From a virus, in the IMG/VR virus record IMGVR_UViG_3300045988_151707, positions 1 through 64,000 of that record: 64,000 nucleotides of DNA; one strand, 5' to 3'. Both the position numbers and the translations under genes were made by a program. Of this stretch, positions 45,304-62,200 are shown one piece after another (the first letter of the stretch is position 1; each line of letters begins with the position of its first letter). The notes below the pieces were generated by a model. The model was not told the DNA's origin. It saw only the letters and a program-made list of their open reading frames with translations, and made no database searches.

Positions 45304-46776
45304 TTATGCTCGCATATATGCAGGTTCGCGGAGCTGTAGGGGGAGCCTCCTTTTCGGATAGTACCTTTCCGGCGGTCTGAATATGGAAGCATAGTCGTTC
45401 AGGTTTAGATATGATGTCTTGTTTGGTTTGTATTTGCTTTTCAGCACACAGACGAAGCTGCCGTTCTTGTTGCGGAAATACAGCCATTCGGAAAATGTTT
45501 CCAAAGCTTTCTTTGCTATGCGCTTTTTGATGTTGAAGGATGCTGTTCCTTTCATCAGACCGAAATAGCTGTTTATGCTTTGCATGACGTGTACGGCGTT
45601 ATCGTACGACGGCATCCGGCTGTATTCTTCTATCGCTGTATGAAGGGCGTGTACTGTGCGGTTGGATATGTAGATACGGTTCAGCTTTACTACTTTTCCG
45701 CAGAACTTTACTCCGTGTGAGGCCGGCTGTATGTAGAATTTATCGGGATGGACTTTTAGTTTCAGCCGTCCGGTCGCTTTTATGAATACTTTCCGGGCAT
45801 GGATTATTTCGGCTGCTGTTTCTGCCACCACGCATATATCATCTACAAACCGTGTGTATCTCACTCCGGCTTTTATCATTTCCGCATCAGCTTCCGCCAT
45901 GACGAGGTTTGCGAGGAGTTGGGAATAGAAGTTTCCTATCGGGAGTCCTTTATCGGGTGGAAGTCCGAAAAGGCTTTTGTTGGGCGGAACTTTATCCCAC
46001 ATTTTTATATCGGAGCGTCGCTCGCAGTCTGTGGCCGGATTGTGCTGTATCAGGGTGTGAAGCAGGGAGAGTTTTTCTTCCTTATCGGGTTTATCGTAAT
46101 ACATATCGGCGTATTTCCGAAAGATGCGGTATGCTGTTTCCTTGTCTATCGACATAAAGAAGCCTGATATATCCATTGTGGCCACAAAGGCTTTCTTTGT
46201 GTAACCGTCCGTTACATCACGAATATTCCGCTGTATCTGCTCGATGGCTGTAGATGCGGAATGCCCGATACGGTTGCCGTGGCTTACATCACCATTGGCT
46301 TCGTGGACTTTCTCGCATATCTCGCCAAGCATCGGAGCGACGTAGTGGTGCACGATACGGTCGGTGTAGTTAGCTGCAAACACTTCTCTATATACAGGAT
46401 AGTCGAGGACAAAACAGATGCTTGTCTGTGGCTGGTAGCCGTTGTCTATTCTGTTTATCAATTCATAAATACGCGACAGGTTGAAATGAAACGATGCTGC
46501 TTCGAGCGATGCGTGCTTGTTTTTGTAACAGTCACTTTCGGCAGCTATCCAGGCGGGCACTTTTTCTGATAAATCGGAGGCCGGCACCACGCTATAGGTG
46601 TTGTTCGTGTTGTTGTTGTTCAAGTTGCCATTTCCCATGTTCACATACCAGGCGTTGTTGCCATTGTTGCGGACACAGCTCCAGACGTTGCCGCCCAGGA
46701 CTTCTGCCCTGTTAATCGAAATAGCTTGCTCACCGCAAGCACAGGGACCTTTATCATTAAACAGTTCTGCCGACAT
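45304..46776 (-). CDS. DGR reverse transcriptase (the ORF as drawn also contains the TR; true start uncertain)
   Basis: YxDD box as RYTRFVDDICVV. DGR-typical LPIGNFYSQLLANL (SQ motif). N-terminal ..FHFNL...YQPQ....FAANYTDRIVHH. No in-frame ATG between 46776 and the conserved RT N-terminus; a GTG lies at 46560. Confidence 0.9.
   Translation of the reverse strand: MSAELFNDKGPCACGEQAISINRAEVLGGNVWSCVRNNGNNAWYVNMGNGNLNNNNTNNTYSVVPASDLSEKVPAWIAAESDCYKNKHASLEAASFHFNLSRIYELINRIDNGYQPQTSICFVLDYPVYREVFAANYTDRIVHHYVAPMLGEICEKVHEANGDVSHGNRIGHSASTAIEQIQRNIRDVTDGYTKKAFVATMDISGFFMSIDKETAYRIFRKYADMYYDKPDKEEKLSLLHTLIQHNPATDCERRSDIKMWDKVPPNKSLFGLPPDKGLPIGNFYSQLLANLVMAEADAEMIKAGVRYTRFVDDICVVAETAAEIIHARKVFIKATGRLKLKVHPDKFYIQPASHGVKFCGKVVKLNRIYISNRTVHALHTAIEEYSRMPSYDNAVHVMQSINSYFGLMKGTASFNIKKRIAKKALETFSEWLYFRNKNGSFVCVLKSKYKPNKTSYLNLNDYASIFRPPERYYPKRRLPLQLREPAYMRA
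46575..46701 (-). repeat. DGR template repeat (TR), 127 bp
   Basis: Aligns without gaps to 47219-47345. 15 mismatches, every one a T in TR on the plus strand (an A on the coding strand). Rich in AAC codons (NNGNN..NLNNNNTNNT). Confidence 0.93.
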
Positions 46777-46779
46777 AGT

Positions 46780-47133
46780 TCAAGACTTTTCGGATCTGAC
46801 ATTCTTTATCCTCGCAAGCGAAGATAAAATATTATCGCACAAAACGTCTATTACAGACGCTTTCTCTTTGCTGCATCCTCCAAGAGCCACTATCAAGTAT
46901 ATCCCGAACTGCAACTCGTATGTCAGTTCTGTAGCTCTTTTATAATAGTCCATTCCACGGACCTGGCGCATAGCGTAGATGAAGAGTAATGCGCCTTGCT
47001 TCAGCATAGGATCTATATATGTTCTGCTTATGACCTTATAAGCTTTGCTGTTGATTTCTATGAGACAATTATTCAGGCGTATCACATCCTGAATAATCGG
47101 TGCGTCCAAATGTTTCCTCCCGGATCTGTTCAT
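46780..47133 (-). CDS. avd: Accessory variability determinant (Avd-like four-helix-bundle protein)
   Basis: 117 aa, helical and basic. Sits between the target gene and the TR, as in the Bordetella phage BPP-1 cassette. Confidence 0.75.
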   Translation of the reverse strand: MNRSGRKHLDAPIIQDVIRLNNCLIEINSKAYKVISRTYIDPMLKQGALLFIYAMRQVRGMDYYKRATELTYELQFGIYLIVALGGCSKEKASVIDVLCDNILSSLARIKNVRSEKS

Positions 47134-47183
47134 TTCTATTGTCGCGTATTAAATGTTAATATATTTTAATGCAAAAGTTAATG

Positions 47184-47202
47184 AGCCGTGCTCCGCACGG
47201 CT
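47184..47202 (-). other. GC-rich hairpin just 3' of the VR (8-bp stem, 3-nt loop)
   Basis: AGCCGTGC-TCC-GCACGGCT, 9 nt past the target-gene stop codon. Confidence 0.8.
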
Positions 47203-47210
47203 GAGATAAA

Positions 47211-48629
47211 TCAAAAAGCGGAGGCCGGCACCACGCTACAGGTGCCGTACGCGTTGCCGTAGTACAAGGTGCCATTACCCATGTGCACATACCAGGCGTA
47301 GTTGCCACTGTAGCGGACACAGCTCCAGACGTTGCCGCCCAGGACGCCAGGTATGCCCCATTTTTCATAACTGTTAAGATAGTTTATCAATCCTGAAATT
47401 ATGCTTTTGTTTGTCCAGTATGGATATAATTCTTTCTCTCCTGCCATATACTTCCCTTCAAGTGTTTTGATGTAATACACAGCATGAGAGTCCGCCATAT
47501 TCCATTCGTAATTTGTACTGGAATTTCCCGGTCTGCTTATGTATGGGGTAATGATATACCAATAACCGTCAACGGTTATGGCTTCCGCTCCTTTTGCGCC
47601 CGGAGAAAGAAGAGGTCGTTCGGCGGAGTTTACTCCGGTGTCGTTCATGTTTACACCGTTTGTTTTCTGCTGTTCGTACAGCCATTCAGCGTATTCAGGT
47701 TTAAAATAATATGCGTTGTTTACTGAATACTTATTATTTGTATTGTACATTGCTTTCAAACCTGTGTTCTGGCCGTTTACGAAGAAAAACATATCTTCAC
47801 CTAACTGAGCCTGTACGCCTGATGAATTTAGGATTTCCACATCGGTTATTGTGCCTTCTGCTTCAGAAGATGTTATGCCGCTACAGATGGCAAACCTGTG
47901 GCGAAGCCATTCATTCTGTACATACATGGATTCAAGACGTTCGGCGTAATTATCCGCTATCATAGCATTTACATTACCGCAATTCTTTTCCATTATCCAG
48001 CGTTGCTTGGTATTACCGCTATAAAGTTCAAGCTTGTCGTCTTCCGTTACGGTTACGCTCCAGTCGGCTGCGAAGTGACTTCCTGCAGCATGGGTGCCAA
48101 GGTTCTCATCTATGGTTCCATGATAGTCTGTTCCTTCTCCTGTTCCGGTTCTCTGATCGTATTCATAAACGGAATGCTGCATTGCGTTTGATGCTTTGCT
48201 TGTAGTACCGGACGTGGCGTAATATTCTCCCTGCCACGGCCAATACAATATCGTTCTTATCCCGTTGCACTCCAAAGAGAATCCTACCGGAGGAGCAATG
48301 AGTTCGTTGTCGAAGCCGTTGGCCACGCTGCGCTCGTTCCATTCTTTTACCGTGTAATGCTTCAGGTCTGCATCTACAATCTTGATATGGTCGTTTGTAG
48401 CTACGGCTTCCGTCTTGCCTTCTTTTGTTGTGATGGCAGTGGAGCGTACCGGCAGTATCAGCATTTGCGATTCAAAGGCGTATTCATCCCCTGTCGGAAT
48501 GGCTGCTATTTTAGCCGGATATTCGGAAAGGATTTCTCCTACATTTTCTACACCCTTTGCTTCAATGGCTGCCTTTATGGCGGCTTTGCTTTCTTTTAAC
48601 TTGTTTAGTTTGTCTGCTGTCGTTCCCAT
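47211..48629 (-). CDS. DGR target protein (tail-fibre / receptor-binding candidate) with C-terminal variable region
   Basis: 472 aa. The last 42 codons (VLGGNVWSCVRYSGNYAWYVHMGNGTLYYGNAYGTCSVVPASAF) form the VR. N-terminus is fibre-like and helical (MGTTADKLNKLKESKAAIKAAIEAKG). Confidence 0.9.
   Translation of the reverse strand: MGTTADKLNKLKESKAAIKAAIEAKGVENVGEILSEYPAKIAAIPTGDEYAFESQMLILPVRSTAITTKEGKTEAVATNDHIKIVDADLKHYTVKEWNERSVANGFDNELIAPPVGFSLECNGIRTILYWPWQGEYYATSGTTSKASNAMQHSVYEYDQRTGTGEGTDYHGTIDENLGTHAAGSHFAADWSVTVTEDDKLELYSGNTKQRWIMEKNCGNVNAMIADNYAERLESMYVQNEWLRHRFAICSGITSSEAEGTITDVEILNSSGVQAQLGEDMFFFVNGQNTGLKAMYNTNNKYSVNNAYYFKPEYAEWLYEQQKTNGVNMNDTGVNSAERPLLSPGAKGAEAITVDGYWYIITPYISRPGNSSTNYEWNMADSHAVYYIKTLEGKYMAGEKELYPYWTNKSIISGLINYLNSYEKWGIPGVLGGNVWSCVRYSGNYAWYVHMGNGTLYYGNAYGTCSVVPASAF
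47219..47345 (-). repeat. DGR variable repeat (VR), 127 bp
   Basis: See TR. The shared GC-rich 3' end GGTGCCGGCCTCCG (coding sense) is followed by a 7-nt segment present only in the VR copy. Confidence 0.93.
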
Positions 48630-55990: not shown

Positions 55991-56032
55991 CAAAGTTACG
56001 AAGAGCACATTGGAGAATGAAGGACAAAAAAA
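55991..56032 (-). promoter_or_regulatory. Late-type promoter module (GTCCTTCA-N19-TAACTTTG)
   Basis: Minus strand reads TTTTTTTGTCCTTCA-N19-TAACTTTG, ~45 nt upstream of the ATG at 55947. Confidence 0.7.
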
Positions 56033-56060
56033 CGACGGTTTCTCGGAGGACAAAAACAAA

Positions 56061-56086
56061 AAAGGAGACAATCGCTTGTCTCCTTT
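56061..56086 (-). terminator. Rho-independent terminator preceding the promoter module
   Basis: AAAGGAGACA-ATCGCT-TGTCTCCTTT followed on the minus strand by TTGTTTTTG. Confidence 0.65.
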
Positions 56087-56383
56087 CTGTGTGTGTTGAT
56101 AAAACTCTCATCGAAGAAGGGAATCCCTGTTTTCCCTATCACGCCGCTAAATTACAAAAAATATTTATATCCGAATAAAACGGATATGTTTTTTTGACAA
56201 TTGAATGCTTATTTGCACTTTAAAACAATAAAAAGGGGAATATACCTCTCTTGGAAATATCCCCCTTTATGCATCTAATAATTCATTAAGAATTATAGCT
56301 GCAAATATAGCTTTTTATTATGATTGACATCTTGTTTATGCTTAATTTTTAATATATTTATAGTGTATCTAATAATAATCATT

Positions 56384-57528
56384 ATGAATAAAATTAAGTA
56401 TGAGCTTGTAACGCATCGTGTACACGGAGGAATGCTAGCTGTTTTTGTGAAATGTTCACAGTATGGTTCTGTAATAGAACTAGATACTAATGTCAGAGTG
56501 TTTAATGACGAATGGAGCAAAGAATTCGGACTTATTTCTAAAAATCCAAATGCCGCTAATCTTAACCTGCTAATCAGAAAACTTGTGTATAACCTGGAAG
56601 AGATTGAACTAACTTATTCTGGAGAAATTACATTGTCTAAATTGCATGACATCTATTCAAAACGTGGAGCTTCTGCAGACTGGTATGTAATGTGGGAAAA
56701 ATCCATGAATGAAAGAGGGTTAAAACCTCGTACTATAGAAATACATGAAAATGTTTTGAAGACTATAAAAAAATTCAGAGATTCTTGTCCTGTCACATCA
56801 TTGACAGAGGATTTCTTCCGCGGATTCATGGGATTTTTAATTAATTCCGGACTTAAATATTCAACCGTATGTAAGGAAATGCATGTTGTTAAGGCATATT
56901 ATAATATCGCACGTAAATTGTATGGGAATAAGGTTCCATCGGATGCATTCGCTTTTTACCATGATCCAAAAGACCTGAACAATACTTATAAACTGAAGTC
57001 GTTAAGTGATGATGATATACGTAAGATTGAGAATTATGTAGCATCTGGGACGTTATCAGAAAGTAAAAAGCTAACTATCAATCAATTCTTATTCATGAGC
57101 TATTCTGGAACTAGGATAAGTGATTTTGCTTCTCTCAACGAAAAAAACTTCAAGTTGGAAGATGGTCGGATTTGGCTTGAATATAATTCCGTAAAAACAA
57201 ATACACATGTCAGAATACCTCTTTTTGCTCTGTTTGATGGAAGAGGTGAGCAAATATATAGCCAGTATCAGAATAGACTTTCAGAGTTTTTTATGTGGGG
57301 AACAATTGCAGGTTCAATTCAAGGTTGTCTTCCGCTCTTAAAGGAAGTGGCCTTAACAAGCATGTAACCGCTCACGTTGCAAGACATACTTGCGCAAGCA
57401 GATTAATTAATAGGAATGTTCCTATAACTACAATACAGCAAGTAATCGGTCATAGACAAATAAAGACTACGATGATATATGCAAAGATTGACGACAATTC
57501 GTTTGTAAGACAATTGAAAGGATTATAA
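56384..57528 (+). pseudogene. Tyrosine recombinase (integrase/invertase family) split by a 1-nt frameshift near 57277-57300
   Basis: ORFs 56324-57367 and 57295-57528 together carry R (SGTRISD), K (SVKTN), HxxR (HVARHT), H (GHRQ) and Y (MIYAKI). The frames switch at or near the T6 run 57287-57292. Confidence 0.8.
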
Positions 57529-57551
57529 AAAGCCTCTTTACGAGGCTTTTT
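57527..57551. terminator. Bidirectional terminator after the recombinase gene
   Basis: AAAAAGCCTC-TTTAC-GAGGCTTTTT. Confidence 0.7.
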
Positions 57552-57555
57552 ACAA

Positions 57556-57572
57556 GTTCTGGCGGAACTGAT
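57556..57572. repeat. Candidate recombination site L (GTTCTGGCGGAACTGAT; palindromic arms AGTTC/GAACT around TGGCG)
   Basis: 14 of 17 match to the reverse complement of 58052-58068. Lies exactly where homology between the two knob cassettes begins. Confidence 0.5.
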
Positions 57573-57825
57573 GGGTGGATTTATAAGGAGAAGCCCAGTT
57601 TCAGAATCTTTCGACTCCTGTATAAATCAGGGCGTTTATAATATCAATAAGACCACTTATCCATCCGCAGTAAACTATCCTCCAAGTATTGTCTATGGGC
57701 TTCTATTTGTATTCAGTTCATCGAATGGATGGGTTTCACAATTATCTCATAATTTGGAAAATAATACAATACACACAAGAATAAGAAATGAAAATGGTAT
57801 TTGGAATGAGTGGAAACAGTTATAA
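57571..57825 (+). CDS. Alternative tail-fibre knob cassette (silent or stand-alone C-terminal domain)
   Basis: 84 aa ending ..NGIWNEWKQL, homologous to the C-terminus of 57820-58404 (..NGEWTEWKEL). The in-frame homology (VLAEL vs VLAGL) starts upstream of its ATG. Confidence 0.55.
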   Translation: MGGFIRRSPVSESFDSCINQGVYNINKTTYPSAVNYPPSIVYGLLFVFSSSNGWVSQLSHNLENNTIHTRIRNENGIWNEWKQL

Positions 57826-58404
57826 TTCTTTCCATTCAGTCCATTCTCCATTACTTATTTTTGCCCTTTGATAAGTCGTTCCAGTAAATATCTCTACTAG
57901 TATCTGAAATGCACTTTGATCAGATTTCGCAGAAAGCAGAAAACCAAAATATCCATTTGTGTTTGTTGAGCCATTCTCTGCATAATAATATCCATCTTCA
58001 ATGTTGTTCGCGTCAACCACTTTGCGTCCACGATAGGCGAAGGGGAATTGTATTAGTCCCGCCAGGACTGATGAAAACTGTTCTTTGCCAATATATATAG
58101 GATTCCCATTAGAGTCAATTCCTCTTATAAAAGGAATATCTTCTGAAGGCTCATTCAATTTCTCTGATTTTGAAATTTCTCTAGATGCATCTCCTATACT
58201 GATTATTCCAGTTTCCATATCGCTCGGATTTGAAACTATAAAATTTTTAGGAGAATTTATTTGTAAAAATGATGACATTAATTCAGAGATTACTTTTTTC
58301 ATGGAATCTTTTGACATCTTTTGTACATCCCCATTACTCTTTACACCAAGAAAATAATCAAAATCTTCAACGGATGTAACGTCTGATAATTTTTTATCTG
58401 CCAT
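57820..58404 (-). CDS. Tail-fibre tip protein with C-terminal knob domain
   Basis: 194 aa. Converges on the plus-strand cassette, sharing the palindromic TTATAA stop region. Confidence 0.6.
   Translation of the reverse strand: MADKKLSDVTSVEDFDYFLGVKSNGDVQKMSKDSMKKVISELMSSFLQINSPKNFIVSNPSDMETGIISIGDASREISKSEKLNEPSEDIPFIRGIDSNGNPIYIGKEQFSSVLAGLIQFPFAYRGRKVVDANNIEDGYYYAENGSTNTNGYFGFLLSAKSDQSAFQILVEIFTGTTYQRAKISNGEWTEWKEL
58052..58068. repeat. Candidate recombination site R (plus strand ATTAGTCCCGCCAGGAC; arms AGTCC/GGACT around the inverted spacer)
   Basis: Inverted partner of 57556-57572. Lies inside codons V113-L117 of the fibre-tip gene. Confidence 0.5.
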
Positions 58405-58447
58405 AATTATATGTTTTAATCGTTTGTGTTTTGTTATATAATACTCA

Positions 58448-58969
58448 TTAAACAGTTTCCTTATTATCCGGAAGAACCGGTCTGTAATAAATTACTTTTT
58501 CAGATTCATCAGGAGAAAGTGAAAGAAGCATAGGATTCTGGTCTGGCATAGTATCCTCTGATAAAGTATGTGGAGTCACTACCTCAAGAAGCACATCATC
58601 AAAATTAAACTTAAAACCAGAAGGAGCTTCTGTGCCGATTACCTCATTAAAACTTGGATATAAACGCTTTAGTTCCAATGCCTGATTGTTTGTAAGGCTA
58701 ATGTTATTAATATCTGATGATACTTTTCCCAATAAAGATACGAGCTTGTTAAGAAAATTATAATCCAGATTATCCGGATAGAACAGATTTCCTTCTTCAA
58801 TCATAGAATCTTTTTCTGATTCTGGTATTTCTTTCCACAATGCCGCTTCTTCCATGGATGAAACAATCATTGATTTTTCAAAACGTCTTTCACTAATTGG
58901 AACTTCCTCACTCTGAGTAAGAAGACATCCGTTACTTGCTTGTAGTATCATTTTTCCTTGCTTTTTCAA
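58448..58969 (-). CDS. Hypothetical protein
   Basis: 173-aa ORF. Start uncertain because it overlaps the upstream gene. Confidence 0.45.
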   Translation of the reverse strand: MKKQGKMILQASNGCLLTQSEEVPISERRFEKSMIVSSMEEAALWKEIPESEKDSMIEEGNLFYPDNLDYNFLNKLVSLLGKVSSDINNISLTNNQALELKRLYPSFNEVIGTEAPSGFKFNFDDVLLEVVTPHTLSEDTMPDQNPMLLSLSPDESEKVIYYRPVLPDNKETV

Positions 58970-59219
58970 TCATGTTGTCAATAGCATCAATAAAACGTGG
59001 GTTCCCGAACCTGGAATATTCCTTAATCAGTTCCACTTCTTTCTCATCATATTCTTCTTCACCATCTGAATTGTATATCTTACGGCACAATTCAAGCGAA
59101 GCAACTCCCCTGCCCGATGCGTAGATAGCATCGGCAAACATTTCTCTTACATCTTCCACTGCTTCCGTGACGCGTGAAAGACCGTTGAAAACGTGTAATT
59201 CCTTAAAATTCAGTTTCAT
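58932..59219 (-). CDS. Hypothetical protein
   Basis: 95-aa ORF directly after the 1019-aa fibre gene. Confidence 0.45.
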   Translation of the reverse strand: MKLNFKELHVFNGLSRVTEAVEDVREMFADAIYASGRGVASLELCRKIYNSDGEEEYDEKEVELIKEYSRFGNPRFIDAIDNMIEKARKNDTTSK

Positions 59220-59221
59220 TA

Positions 59222-62200
59222 TTATCCTATTTTATAACAAATTCCATTTTTAAAATAAAGGGTTTTTGAATACCCGTTTGGGGGCACATATTCTGCGGTA
59301 CCTGTAAATCCAGTAACTGAATTACCTCCTTCTGTCATTGATATTTGAGTAGGATTTATAATCATACTAGAATCTCCCATCTTTAATCTTATATCTCCGT
59401 TTGTTATCTGAGTGCTCTTGTCACCGCTGTTCATTCTTATGTCAAACGGGTATAGGTAAAGCGTTTCCCCTTCAATATTTTTCAATGATATTGCAGCTGA
59501 TTCATATCCTGAATTGTCGTAGAAAAACCAGCTAGAAAGCACATTCCCTGTACTTGAAACTAAAGCCATTTGTCTTGAATCAGGGTCTAATATAATTCTG
59601 TTTCCATCTGAATTAGTAACAACACCTCCAGTGAAAGTACCTGTAGCAGATTTCAACTCACCGGAAAAAGATCCGCTCGTAGCTACGACTTCACCTTGTA
59701 TATGTGCTTTTGTAGCATACATCTCACCAGATTCCGTCACACGGAAGGGAGCAGAAGCACGGTTCTCGTAAGTGCTTCCTGCAAAAATACGCACAAGGCT
59801 GCCTGAATTGCTTCCTGTCATACCTGCAGTAACAGTACCATCATCTTTCTGTATAAGCAGGTCGTTTCCCTGAAACAACTGTATTTTTGCATTCTTGGCT
59901 ATAATCAGTGATGTAAAAATAGAACCTACATTCGCGCCAAACCTTTTCCAAAATTCAGTGTTTGCGTATGTAATGCTGCTGCTCGATACATGCGTTTTCA
60001 AACACTGGTATGCGTCCCATCCGGTTTCAACAGCATTGTTTCTTACCAATACTACATCTATATAACGAACAGGAAGGCTTCCGTCTTTCACATCGCTGTC
60101 ATTACGGTATTCCGTGTTCAATGCCCATTCAGAATCGCGGATTACACATCCCTGAAGACCGTCTGCCCCTTTCTCGCCAAGCTGTGCAAATACAGCAGGA
60201 GTAGAGAATAACCCCCATTCTCCATCTGTTGATTTCCTTCTTTTAGAGACCCATTCGTATGGATAAGAAACAGAAATACCTGAAGGTGAGCGTGTCCATC
60301 CACTTGGTATGTAATCATCTATCTGTGCTGTTGTTGGAGTTGAAGGGGTTGAATTTATTGTTGTTCGTGTGTAAATTTCTTCAGTATAAGGTCCGTCTTC
60401 GCCTTTTTGAGCAATTATTTCGTATTCTAAAGAGTTTTGTTCTCCCGTTAGTATATATCCTCCATCTTCAAATATAAATCTATTCCCATCATTATCTGTC
60501 CAACACCATAAAGGAGGATTGTTAGTTGCATTTTTTGCAGAAAATGAAGAACCACACATTGTTACAACACCCATTTCAGGAACTTCCATGCCAGACTCCC
60601 ACCTTCCAATATAAGTTAACCCAGCTCCATCTTCACCCTTATCTACTTGTAGAAGCCAATCAGCATTTTCCTTGGAAGGTTCTGTATCTGTCCCGTCTTC
60701 TGCTACGCATAGCCACAATATACCATCATGGCTTACACGGTCATAAAATTCATATTTTGTGCCACTTTCCCATTGACCTCTGTCATTTGCCACAAGAACC
60801 GGCGTTCCATCTGGTCTTACTTGATTTATTGTACCAGTAAAATACACAGAATTAAGGTACATGGAGTAACCAGACATGTTCAGCCCGAATATGTTCAAAT
60901 TCGTCAGGTCGCCATACTGCATGGCAATATTCCCAACCGTAAATTCCCAGTCATTCTGTTTCCAGAGAAGTCGGGTATATGATCGTGTTTCGTATGCGGA
61001 GCTTTGTCTTGCTTCATCAGTAAAGTTTCCGTAGCATGAAAAACTCATCTGTGGCTGTGGATGAATAGTATATCCGGGACGAAGTGCATAACGGAATGTC
61101 TCATTATTATCTCCCGACACCTCCGTCACGCGAAAATAGGTGGTTGCAAATCCGGAAAATTTGAAGTTACCTTTGCTGTCGTCAGAATCCTCGGTAGCAT
61201 CCCTTTCATCGCCAAAATGGAAGATACCAAGTGCAATGTCATCCTTAGATACCGCACCAAACTCTCCTTTTTCCAGCTTTAGTGTACAAGTTCCAGTTGT
61301 AAGCTGATTACCTTCCGAATCCGTATCAGGTGTGCATGACAGAATAATTCCAGCACCAGGTACACGCCATTTAATCCCCAGGAAAATCTCTACACGGTTG
61401 TACCGGAGTTCAGGAACCTCCAGAAATTCCCACAAGCGAAGTCCGCGCATTTCTCCGTATCCTTTTTTATCTATCTTTGCGCCAAAACCGGTTAAACCTT
61501 CGGCAAAACCTTTCTCTCCCACCACAATTCCTGCCATCATCGTAAGCAAGAATTTTGTGGAGTCTTCACGGTCTTTATTGATAAGGTATTGTCTGAGAAG
61601 GTCTAAATATTTTCCAGTAAGCAACTTGGTTGTGGGCACGGATTCGTCGCTTTGAAGGAATTCTCCCTCATCTCCCTGGCGTGCCACATCAGAAATCTGC
61701 TTGTCGTTGATAACCAGCTTGCCGATAATGGAAAGCGTGCCTTGAACTATGTAGGAAGTGAAGCGTTTCAGCGGACGGATAAGGTCATCGGCTGTCACTT
61801 CAAACAGTTCTTTCCATCCGGCTGTATCCTGCGTTTGTCCTTCAGGAGTAGAAAGCTTACCGTAGTCCAGTGTAATTTCACGGTCGAGGGTGGCAGCTTC
61901 CAGACTGTCGGTGGCGGTAATGCTTCCGATACGTATGTAATAGAAATCTTCGCTGGGATTCTCTCCGCCGATGCTTCCGTCAGTAGCATAGTCGTTCACG
62001 GAAAACAGCACCATGGCATCGTCAGAACCACGTTCCAGACGGGCATAGATGTAGTGTGCCTCCGTGCGGTTCAGACGGGTGTTGTATCCCGTCAGCGTCC
62101 AGCTTCGGTATTCTCCGTTGGGCAGATAATCTATGCCGTAGCTTTTCTGCGGAGCCACCATGATGGTACAGCCCGGAACCACCCCCACCTGAATCAGGTT

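What the first reader, a model, noticed from the sequence alone, without database searches (positions are those of the whole stretch)
57556..58068. Candidate invertible tail-fibre knob switch next to the tyrosine recombinase (shufflon-like)
Two homologous knob-domain coding segments face each other tail to tail and share the palindromic stop region TTATAA. They are 57820-58058 on the minus strand, which forms the C-terminus of a 194-aa fibre-tip protein, and 57571-57825 on the plus strand. Their protein homology starts at VLAGL/VLAEL. Exactly there lie inverted 17-bp sites (57556-57572 and 58052-58068, 14 of 17 matching). Each site is itself a small palindrome, AGTTC-TGGCG-GAACT and AGTCC-TGGCG-GGACT, with compensatory arm changes and an asymmetric spacer in opposite orientation. 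DNA identity away from the sites is low. Inversion of 57573-58051 would fuse the constant N-terminal 115 residues in frame to the alternative knob. The adjacent recombinase is of the tyrosine family, as is Rci of the R64 shufflon. Together with the DGR, this would give the phage two independent receptor-binding diversification systems.
Basis: partly seen in the sequence, partly recalled or inferred. Interest (0 to 1): 0.75.

Follow-up and report, generated by a model that had tools for sequence, protein, structure and literature searches.

The report
Invertible tail-fibre knob switch in gut phage
A roughly 110-kb human-gut phage carries a small flip-switch of DNA that can swap the receptor-binding tip of a tail-fibre protein; comparison with relatives shows the flip really happens, but this kind of switch is already known in other phages.

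Summary
The 11-mer CTGGCGGRACT occurs only twice in the window, at 57559-57569 (+) and 58055-58065 (-), with 0.00 expected by chance. The two copies bracket two tail-to-tail knob cassettes.

A 97-98% identical relative (L025) has exactly this segment inverted. Its expressed protein (P0079) is the constant N-terminus joined to the window's silent knob at SSVLAEL. A second pair (L004/L009) shows a clean 662-bp flip at 99.7% identity.

Across about 45 related loci, the outer arm of each site stays with the flank and the inner arm travels with the cassette. This places the crossover in the central CTGGCGG. Relatives carry 2 to at least 8 sites and draw on about 20 cassette types. A tyrosine recombinase gene is adjacent in two phage lineages.

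Both knobs model as pyocin/Mu-fibre-like knobs. In the window the recombinase is broken by a T7-to-T6 frameshift that recurs in independent assemblies, so this copy may be locked or flip rarely.

This is a new member of a known kind. Precedents are the Rin shufflon of bifidophages (2018) and the BV01-like Phocaeicola phage tail-fibre shufflon (2026 preprint). It works like the R64 shufflon, but relatedness of the recombinase to Rci was not shown. A DGR is also present.

The parts
58070..58404 (-). Constant N-terminal coding part (about residues 1-112) of the 194-aa fibre-tip protein. The whole gene is 57820-58404.
   Evidence: ORF list. This part is 95-97% conserved over residues 1 to 115-118 in relatives with unrelated C-termini (L011-L015, L018, L019; 91% in L007 and L017).
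58055..58069 (-). Recombination site at the expressed junction, AGTCC-TGGCG-GGACT. The conserved 11-mer CTGGCGGGACT is at 58055-58065. The site encodes S-V-L-A-G-L.
   Evidence: It is a breakpoint of the inversion relative to L025.
57820..58054 (-). Knob cassette 1 (IQFPFAYRGRK...NGEWTEWKEL), currently expressed.
   Evidence: Model pLDDT is 82-89, with top fold matches to R2 pyocin fibre, Mu tail fibre and phi812 baseplate.
57570..57825 (+). Knob cassette 2 (MGGFIRRSPVSESF...NGIWNEWKQL), currently silent and promoterless.
   Evidence: It is expressed as the C-terminus of P0079 in L025. The model matches R1/R2 pyocin fibre knobs.
57555..57569 (+). Recombination site at the silent junction, AGTTC-TGGCG-GAACT. 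The conserved 11-mer CTGGCGGAACT is at 57559-57569.
   Evidence: It is the second breakpoint of the inversion relative to L025.
57528..57552 (.). Hairpin AAAAAGCCTC-TTTAC-GAGGCTTTTT. It is probably a bidirectional terminator between the recombinase gene and the invertible segment, and it forms the conserved outer flank of the recombinase-side site.
   Evidence: Inverted repeat I7. Fold -18.4 kcal/mol, z = -3.65. Flank 'aggctttttaca' is conserved in all lineage-1 loci.
56384..57528 (+). Tyrosine recombinase gene (381 aa when intact). It is split here by a 1-nt deletion in a T-run: T6 at 57287-57292 against T7 in 9 relatives. The split separates the catalytic Arg region from HxxR, His and Tyr.
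   Evidence: Pfam PF13102 and PF00589. Intact copy in L025. Indel map. Alignment to XerA shows HVARH and IY after the frameshift. The T6 allele is on 8 contigs.

Best explanation
The locus is a site-specific DNA inversion switch: the one-segment form of a phage tail-fibre shufflon.

A small fibre-tip protein has a constant N-terminal part of about 115 aa that ends in ...SSVLA(G/E)L. Two alternative knob cassettes of about 80-88 aa lie tail to tail. Each begins with the 11-bp element CTGGCGGRACT, and the two copies are in inverted orientation.

The adjacent tyrosine recombinase is inferred to exchange strands within the central CTGGCGG. This flips the roughly 500-bp segment, so that one or the other knob is fused in frame to the constant part. 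The silent knob has no promoter and sits behind a terminator.

The knobs resemble R-pyocin and Mu fibre knobs, so the flip is inferred to change receptor specificity and host range.

Shown here:
- the sites and their positions;
- both orientations in near-identical genomes;
- hybrid arms that locate the crossover;
- the in-frame fusion product;
- an adjacent recombinase in two lineages.

Inferred:
- that this recombinase, and not one supplied in trans, catalyses the flip;
- that the knobs bind different receptors;
- that the window's own copy still flips, because its recombinase carries a T6 frameshift. It may be locked, or may be rescued at low level by slippage on the T-run.
For: - The 11-mer occurs exactly twice, in inverted orientation, with 0.00 expected.
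- L025 has flanks at 97-98% identity, collinear, and the segment 57555-58077 inverted. Its recombinase-side site is the hybrid AGTTC-TGGCG-GGACT.
- P0079 is the constant part plus the silent knob.
- L004 against L009 shows a 662-bp flip at 99.7% identity with collinear flanks.
- Across loci the outer arm tracks the flank: mid 19/19 AGCAC, int-side 14/14 AGTTC, end3 6/6 AGTCC. The inner arm tracks the cassette, for example IGIATLEK 17/17 GAACT and IDFPFKYR 7/7 GGACT.
- There are 2 to at least 8 sites per locus and about 20 cassette types, each found in both expressed and silent positions.
- Contigs L003 and L022 fold back through the segment into the constant gene, with 44/44 and 84/84 identical bases. 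Seven lineage-1 contigs stop within about 90 nt of the site; six run 6-88 nt past it and L019 ends 4 nt inside it. Both patterns are expected from mixed orientations in one assembly.
- A tyrosine recombinase is adjacent in lineage 1 (95-97% identical) and in lineage 2 (29% identical).
- Simulated inversion is in frame.
- Both knobs match pyocin and Mu fibre structures.
Against: - No raw reads were available, so flipping within one population is shown only indirectly, through fold-back contigs and contig breaks.
- The window's recombinase is frameshifted upstream of HxxR and the catalytic Tyr. This allele recurs in 8 contigs.
- All 7 contigs carrying this exact 194-aa protein are in the knob-1 orientation by construction.
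- The inverted segment of L025 is only 87% identical to the window, and its silent cassette has a 25-bp deletion. That pair has therefore diverged since the flip.
- One lineage-2 prophage (L026, Phocaeicola plebeius) has no adjacent recombinase.
- Knob structure matches have modest E-values (4e-3 to 6e-2), and the N-terminal parts of the models have low confidence.
Confidence: 0.85

Rival explanations
1. The pattern is static mosaicism. The conserved SVLAGL-coding linker is only a hotspot for homologous recombination between co-infecting phages. The opposite orientations seen in relatives are then rare historical rearrangements, not a programmed reversible switch.
For: Cassettes, and whole two-cassette segments, are shared at 94-96% DNA identity between phage lineages whose constant parts and recombinases are very different. 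Lateral exchange therefore does occur. No read-level data were available.
Against: An 11-15 bp repeat is too short for efficient homologous recombination. Flips are exact, site to site, and recur independently. Arm hybrids place the exchange inside a 7-bp core. Fold-back contigs and contig breaks at the site imply both junctions in one assembly. A tyrosine recombinase is syntenic in two lineages.
Confidence: 0.06
2. The switch is real at the family level, but in this genome it is a frozen relic. The T6 frameshift has inactivated the recombinase, the knob-1 orientation is fixed, and the plus-strand cassette is a decaying silent remnant.
For: The frameshift removes HxxR, His and Tyr. The allele is present in 8 contigs from at least two datasets. 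Four of 12 recombinase genes carry homopolymer indels. Silent cassettes do decay elsewhere: L025, L002 and L026.
Against: Both cassettes and both sites in the window are intact. By my own reading of the sequence, a -1 slip on the T-run after the second TTT codon, or transcriptional slippage, would restore exactly the wild-type protein. T6, T7 and T8 variants suggest a reversible tract. A recombinase could also be supplied in trans, as it must be in L026.
Confidence: 0.35
3. The plus-strand ORF 57571-57825 is an independently expressed small protein, for example a fibre chaperone, and not an alternative C-terminus.
For: It has its own ATG and an 84-codon open frame. Fibre genes in Mu and P1 are followed by small assembly genes (general knowledge).
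Against: It lies immediately after a strong hairpin and the site, with no room for a promoter. The ATG codon is I, V, T or N in other cassettes. The same sequence is found fused to the constant part in P0079. It models as a knob domain like cassette 1.
Confidence: 0.03

Closest known systems
Tail-fibre shufflon of BV01-like Phocaeicola vulgatus phages (Research Square preprint, Sept 2026, PMC13596623)
   Same: It is a phage of gut Bacteroidales. A recombinase-flanked region overlaps the distal end of a tail-fibre gene. Short directional motifs separate the cassettes, and each segment gives two alternative C-termini. The motif TGGGAGAACT resembles TGGCGGAACT here at 8 of 10 positions.
   Different: The core differs at 2 of 10 positions. 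The BV01 cassettes are described as non-homologous and the fibre as carbohydrate-binding, whereas here most cassettes are homologous pyocin-type knobs on a small 194-aa tip protein. The window has a single segment. The host phage here is about 110 kb and also has a DGR.
Rin shufflon of Bifidobacterium prophages (Mavrich et al. 2018, PMC6109161)
   Same: It has a phage-encoded tyrosine-family invertase next to variable RBP C-terminus cassettes. A constant N-terminal gene part lies on the other side. Short asymmetric crossover sites precede each cassette.
   Different: The site is different (rix TTCCCTAACCC). Rin lacks an N-terminal arm-type domain, whereas the recombinase here is 381 aa with SAM-like and weak arm-binding matches. 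The host phylum and the RBP fold are also different.
R64 / IncI plasmid shufflon (Rci recombinase, sfx sites, pilV)
   Same: Inversion is by a tyrosine recombinase between short repeats that have a conserved core plus one conserved arm and a variable other arm. Segments carry two tail-to-tail C-terminal cassettes. A constant N-terminus is fused in frame. Direct repeats are present but only inversions are observed. The R64 details are from my own knowledge and.
   Different: The target there is a pilus adhesin of a conjugative plasmid, not a phage fibre. The site sequence is unrelated. The recombinase here gave only sub-threshold Xer/integron-type NCBIfam matches. No Rci sequence was available for a direct comparison.
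Gin/Cin/Min invertible tail-fibre segments of Mu, P1 and p15B
   Same: The biological logic is the same. A single invertible segment (Mu G, P1 C) with two alternative fibre C-termini switches host range, and Min is the multi-segment version. The knob fold here matches the Mu tail fibre 8ju3.
   Different: Those systems use serine invertases with 26-bp sites and a Fis-dependent enhancer. Here the adjacent enzyme is a tyrosine recombinase.

Membership tests
Tyrosine-recombinase shufflon / programmed gene-altering inversion | Short repeats in inverted orientation bracket the invertible segment and are rare elsewhere in the genome. | tested here: met
   The 11-mer occurs twice, in inverted orientation, with 0.00 expected. 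The 15-mer occurs twice even with 2 mismatches allowed.
Tyrosine-recombinase shufflon / programmed gene-altering inversion | Both orientations exist in otherwise near-identical genomes, with breakpoints at the repeats. | tested here: met
   Window against L025. L004 against L009 and L008. Fold-back contigs L003 and L022.
Tyrosine-recombinase shufflon / programmed gene-altering inversion | Inversion fuses a constant N-terminal part in frame to alternative C-termini. | tested here: met
   Simulated inversion gives a 201-aa ORF. The natural product is P0079.
Tyrosine-recombinase shufflon / programmed gene-altering inversion | An adjacent tyrosine recombinase has the catalytic R...HxxR...H...Y residues. 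| tested here: inconclusive
   The family is met: PF00589 at E 3.9e-16, and the intact 381-aa homologue aligns to XerA through HVARH and IY. In the window itself the gene is frameshifted at the T6 run.
Tyrosine-recombinase shufflon / programmed gene-altering inversion | Multiple invertible segments are present (shufflon in the strict sense). | tested here: not met
   The window has one segment and two sites. Relatives have 4, 5 and at least 8 sites, so the family qualifies but this copy is the minimal form.
Tyrosine-recombinase shufflon / programmed gene-altering inversion | Reversible flipping occurs within one population, shown by read-level or experimental evidence. | not testable with these tools
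   There was no access to reads. The only evidence is indirect: assembly breaks and fold-back contigs.
R64-type shufflon (Rci / sfx) | The recombinase is an orthologue of Rci and the sites are sfx-like. | tested here: inconclusive
   No NCBIfam model was reached above its cut-off; the best matches were XerA, XerC and XerD far below threshold. The top plasmid hits are Bacteroidales 'site-specific integrase' at about 31% identity. The R64 record was not available for a direct comparison. The site sequence is unrelated to sfx (my own knowledge).
Gin/Cin/Min serine-invertase fibre switches | The enzyme is a serine recombinase (resolvase/invertase family). | tested here: not met
   The adjacent enzyme is a tyrosine recombinase. 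No serine recombinase was seen among the ORFs scanned.
BV01-like phage tail-fibre shufflon | A directional 10-bp motif TGGGAGAACT lies at the cassette boundaries, and the region is flanked by a recombinase. | tested here: inconclusive
   Recombinase flanking is met. The motif here is TGGCGGRACT, 8 of 10 identical. Protein homology to BV01 was not testable.
Pyocin-knob / tail-fibre tip domain | The C-terminal beta-sandwich knob is structurally similar to R-type pyocin fibre knobs. | tested here: met
   Both knob models (pLDDT 74-91) have top Foldseek hits 6cl6, 6cl5, 6ct8, 8ju3 and 9euf_5, with probability 0.99-1.00 but E-values of only 4e-3 to 0.13. NCBI names P0040 'pyocin knob domain-containing protein'. 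There was no Pfam, NCBIfam or PHROG hit.

The most novel reading that the evidence does not exclude
The CTGGCGGRACT-bounded segments could form a shared, integron-like pool of receptor-binding knob cassettes. On this reading, unrelated gut Bacteroidales phages, whose recombinases are only 29% identical, exchange the cassettes by intermolecular site-specific recombination. In addition, the invertase may itself be switched on and off, or throttled, by a hypermutable T-run (T6, T7 and T8 alleles; a -1 slip restores the protein). The phage would then alternate between a 'shuffling' state and a 'locked' state, on top of DGR mutagenesis of a second fibre gene.
Probability: 0.2. Interest if true: 0.7.

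Novelty: new member of a known kind. Interest (0 to 1): 0.5.

Why it matters
The locus shows that a large, uncultured human-gut phage of about 110 kb (relatives point to Phocaeicola/Bacteroides hosts) has two independent ways to vary its receptor-binding proteins. One is a DGR acting on one gene. The other is a recombinase-driven knob switch on a separate tip protein.

The comparative data give three things:
- a defined 11-bp site with the crossover mapped to a 7-bp core;
- a catalogue of about 20 interchangeable knobs;
- evidence that whole cassette segments move between phage lineages.

This is useful for predicting and engineering the host range of Bacteroidales phages. It also explains why assemblies of these phages break at this gene. 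It does not establish a new principle, because tyrosine-recombinase fibre shufflons are already described in bifidophages and in BV01-like phages.

Tried and rejected
- Deposited phage genomes gave nothing for the locus DNA (megablast) or for the tip protein (tblastn). The recombinase has only hits of about 30% identity or less.
- Pfam, NCBIfam and PHROGs give no family for the tip protein or either knob.
- The genome-contig scan returned one distant locus, in Phocaeicola plebeius. The host is therefore only suggested.
- The 17-mer metagenome scan was too permissive. Most of its 120 loci were chance matches in environmental data, and 21 genuine loci were kept after filtering.
- A second viral-contig scan with the junction 26-mer found only contigs already in hand.
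- My first site model, the 15-mer AGYNCTGGCGGRACT, missed half of the internal sites. Reading L020 showed head-to-head site pairs with divergent outer arms, and rescanning with the 11-mer fixed this.
- The sigma-70 promoter scan is uninformative for Bacteroidota, and the terminator scan missed the hairpin that RNA folding supports.
- The R64 record was not in the plasmid collection, so Rci could not be compared directly.
- The idea that the sites are attP was rejected. The locus is internal to phage genes on both sides, and in the P. plebeius prophage it is not next to bacterial DNA.
- The contig end of L167, 34 nt past the site, was considered as evidence of mixed orientation in a T6 strain. 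It is confounded by cassette SNPs.

Full report
**1. The observation**

- A 194-aa ORF lies on the minus strand (57820-58404). An 84-codon ORF lies on the plus strand (57571-57825). They meet tail to tail, with back-to-back stop codons TTATAA at 57820-57825.
- AGTTCTGGCGGAACT lies at 57555-57569 (+) and AGTCCTGGCGGGACT at 58055-58069 (-). These are the only two matches in the 64-kb window even with two mismatches allowed.
- The 11-mer CTGGCGGRACT, which proved to be the conserved element, also occurs only at these two places, against 0.00 expected in shuffles.
- In the fibre frame both sites read S-V-L-A-(G/E)-L.
- Simulating a crossover in the centre of the sites gives an in-frame 201-aa protein.

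**2. Are the two cassettes homologous knobs?**

Pairwise evidence is weak. BLASTP gives E 9e-5 over the last 19 residues. hhalign gives 78.7% probability and E 1.7e-5 over 28 columns.

Other evidence is stronger.
- Alignments of full-length relatives carrying five or more cassette types share invariant G, Q, R and a terminal W-x-x-W.
- AlphaFold models of the expressed protein and of the natural fusion with the other knob (P0079) both give a confident C-terminal beta domain, with pLDDT 74-91.
- The best PDB matches of both models are the same: R1/R2 pyocin fibres 6cl5, 6cl6 and 6ct8, Mu tail fibre 8ju3, and a phi812 baseplate protein. Foldseek probability is 0.99-1.0, but E-values are only 4e-3 to 0.13.
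- NCBI names a relative 'pyocin knob domain-containing protein'.
- Pfam, NCBIfam and PHROGs have no family for the protein.

**3. The decisive comparative evidence**

A protein search found many relatives that are 91-97% identical over about the first 115-126 residues and then switch to unrelated C-termini, always at SSVLA(G/E)L. One of them, P0079, carries the window's silent plus-strand knob.

The contig of P0079 (L025, ENA ERZ16268294, 107.6 kb) is collinear with the window at 97-98% identity on both sides. The segment 57555-58077 aligns in the opposite orientation. The recombinase-side site of L025 is AGTTC-TGGCG-GGACT. That is the outer arm of that flank joined to the inner arm of knob 1, as expected for an exchange inside the core.

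A second pair is cleaner. L004 and L009 differ by a 662-bp site-to-site inversion at 99.7% identity, with collinear flanks.

Assembly behaviour points the same way.
- Contigs L003 and L022 run through the segment and back into the constant gene on the other strand, with 44/44 and 84/84 identical bases.
- Seven lineage-1 contigs stop within about 90 nt of the site; six run 6-88 nt past it and L019 ends 4 nt inside it.
- This is the usual assembly signature of two orientations in one read set.

**4. Anatomy of the family**

I scanned 24 IMG/VR loci, 21 genuine metagenome loci and one genome locus.
- Each cassette begins with CTGGCGGRACT.
- Cassettes are paired tail to tail in segments of about 500-650 bp.
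- Adjacent segments are joined by two head-to-head sites, AGTYCCGCCAG-GCAGATTTAGCA-CTGGCGGRACT.
- Loci have 2, 4, 5 or at least 8 sites. The window has the minimal one-segment form.
- About 20 cassette types were seen. Each is found in both expressed and silent positions.
- Three cassette types lack the W-x-x-W signature and may have other folds.

The arms behave as follows.
- The outer arm follows the flank: 19/19 AGCAC at internal junctions, 14/14 AGTTC next to the recombinase, 6/6 AGTCC at a third kind of end.
- The inner arm G(G/A)ACT follows the cassette, for example 17/17, 17/18 and 7/7.
- The exchange point therefore lies between them, in CTGGCGG. This fits the 6-8 bp overlap region of tyrosine recombinases (established knowledge).

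**5. The recombinase**

The gene at 56384-57528 matches SAM-like and phage-integrase catalytic domains.
- The intact 381-aa homologue in L025 aligns to XerA through HVARH, GH and the catalytic IY.
- It is 95-97% conserved and always adjacent in lineage-1 loci.
- A second phage lineage has a different constant part (...KEQVAS|VLAGL) and includes a Phocaeicola protein. It has an adjacent tyrosine recombinase that is only 29% identical.
- A P. plebeius prophage has the two-site switch without an adjacent recombinase.

In the window the gene is broken by a T7-to-T6 change at 57287-57292, upstream of HxxR and Tyr.
- The allele is real. The exact truncated product is on 8 contigs, including an independent run.
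- The window is 100% identical to ENA ERZ28657847 scaffold_145, 109,934 bp.
- Another relative has T8, and two have a G3-to-G2 deletion.
- By my own reading of the sequence, a -1 slip after the second TTT codon would give exactly the intact protein. Low-level activity therefore cannot be excluded.

**6. Expression of the silent cassette**

The silent cassette follows directly after the recombinase stop codon, a strong hairpin (57528-57552; -18.4 kcal/mol, z = -3.65) and the site. Its ATG is not conserved among cassettes. Independent expression is therefore unlikely.

**7. Context**

- The tip gene follows a 1019-aa fibre-like protein and two small ORFs.
- The window also has a 2206-aa tape-measure-like protein and a reverse transcriptase.
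- A TR/VR pair (46571-46701 and 47215-47345) has every mismatch at a TR adenine. The DGR is therefore real and targets a different gene (47211-48629).
- The switch region has 34-37% GC, against 45-53% elsewhere.
- The whole two-cassette segment recurs at 94-96% DNA identity in lineage-2 phages. This suggests a laterally moving module.

**8. Comparison with what is known**

In function this is a shufflon. It works like R64 Rci/sfx and like Mu Gin, P1 Cin and p15B Min.
- It is not a member of the serine-invertase group.
- Relatedness to Rci was not shown.
- Phage-encoded tyrosine-invertase shufflons acting on receptor-binding proteins are already published. Rin of Bifidobacterium prophages (2018) was then called the first of its kind. 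A read-verified tail-fibre shufflon of BV01-like Phocaeicola vulgatus phages was described in a September 2026 preprint. Its motif TGGGAGAACT is 8/10 identical to the core here.
- A systematic survey also lists tail-fibre genes among the targets of programmed inversions.

**9. Verdict**

It is a new member of a known kind.
- The points of added interest are the shared cassette pool across lineages, the recurrent homopolymer breaks in the invertase, and coexistence with a DGR.
- Confidence that the locus is a recombinase-driven knob switch is 0.85.
- Whether this particular T6 copy still flips is open, at roughly even odds.

Noticed in passing
window 45304-48629: A complete DGR is present. The reverse transcriptase ORF is 45304-46776 (-). 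The template repeat is 46571-46701 and the variable repeat is 47215-47345, at the 3' end of ORF 47211-48629 (-). Every mismatch falls on an adenine of the template copy.
   Followed up: partly
window 57287-57292; L015, L008, L010 recombinase genes: The recombinase gene carries homopolymer indels in 4 of 12 loci: T6 (window), T8 (L015) against T7 in the rest, and G2 against G3 (L008, L010). The T6 allele is on 8 contigs from at least two datasets. A -1 slip on the T-run would restore the exact protein. This could be phase variation or throttling of the invertase.
   Followed up: partly
L020 4625-4670; L104 22-2291: Internal junctions of multi-segment relatives hold two head-to-head sites separated by 12 nt (AGTTCCGCCAG-GCAGATTTAGCA-CTGGCGGGACT). 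Only the 11-mer (core plus inner arm) is conserved. L104 has at least 8 sites.
   Followed up: yes
window 57559-58086 against L020 4118-4645, L104 45-551, L024 476-982: The window's entire two-cassette segment recurs at 94-96% DNA identity in a second phage lineage. That lineage has an unrelated constant part, and its recombinase is only 29% identical. This implies lateral movement of whole segments.
   Followed up: partly
L025 5553-5770; L002 4878; L026 5677: Silent cassettes decay. L025's knob 1 has a 25-bp deletion that frameshifts it. The IGIATLEK cassette is truncated to 28 codons in L002 and L026.
   Followed up: no
window 56000-60000: The recombinase, switch and tip-gene region has 34-37% GC, against 45-53% in most of the window. 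This is consistent with an acquired module.
   Followed up: no
window 58070-58404 (-), residues 1-120 of the tip protein: The constant part looks like two copies of a unit of about 35 aa (beta-hairpin plus helix): EDFDYFLGVKSNGDVQKMSKDSMKKVISEL and EDIPFIRGIDSNGNPIYIGKEQFSSVLAGL. The recombination site is embedded in the helix of the second copy. The models have low confidence in this part.
   Followed up: no
L003, L022; L007, L011-L014, L018, L019: Public assemblies of these phages break at the site or fold back through it. L003 and L022 are chimeric hairpin contigs. Seven contigs stop within about 90 nt of the site; six run 6-88 nt past it and L019 ends 4 nt inside it. This is an assembly artefact caused by the switch.
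   Followed up: yes
P0013, P0019/P0020, P0023; L010 4819, L005 5570, L017 4340: Three cassette types (VGVVLFSF..., IGINSTVT...LRKLIL, TVRKMELG...KINRA) lack the W-x-x-W knob signature and are longer (108-113 aa). They may be tip domains with a different fold that use the same sites.
   Followed up: no
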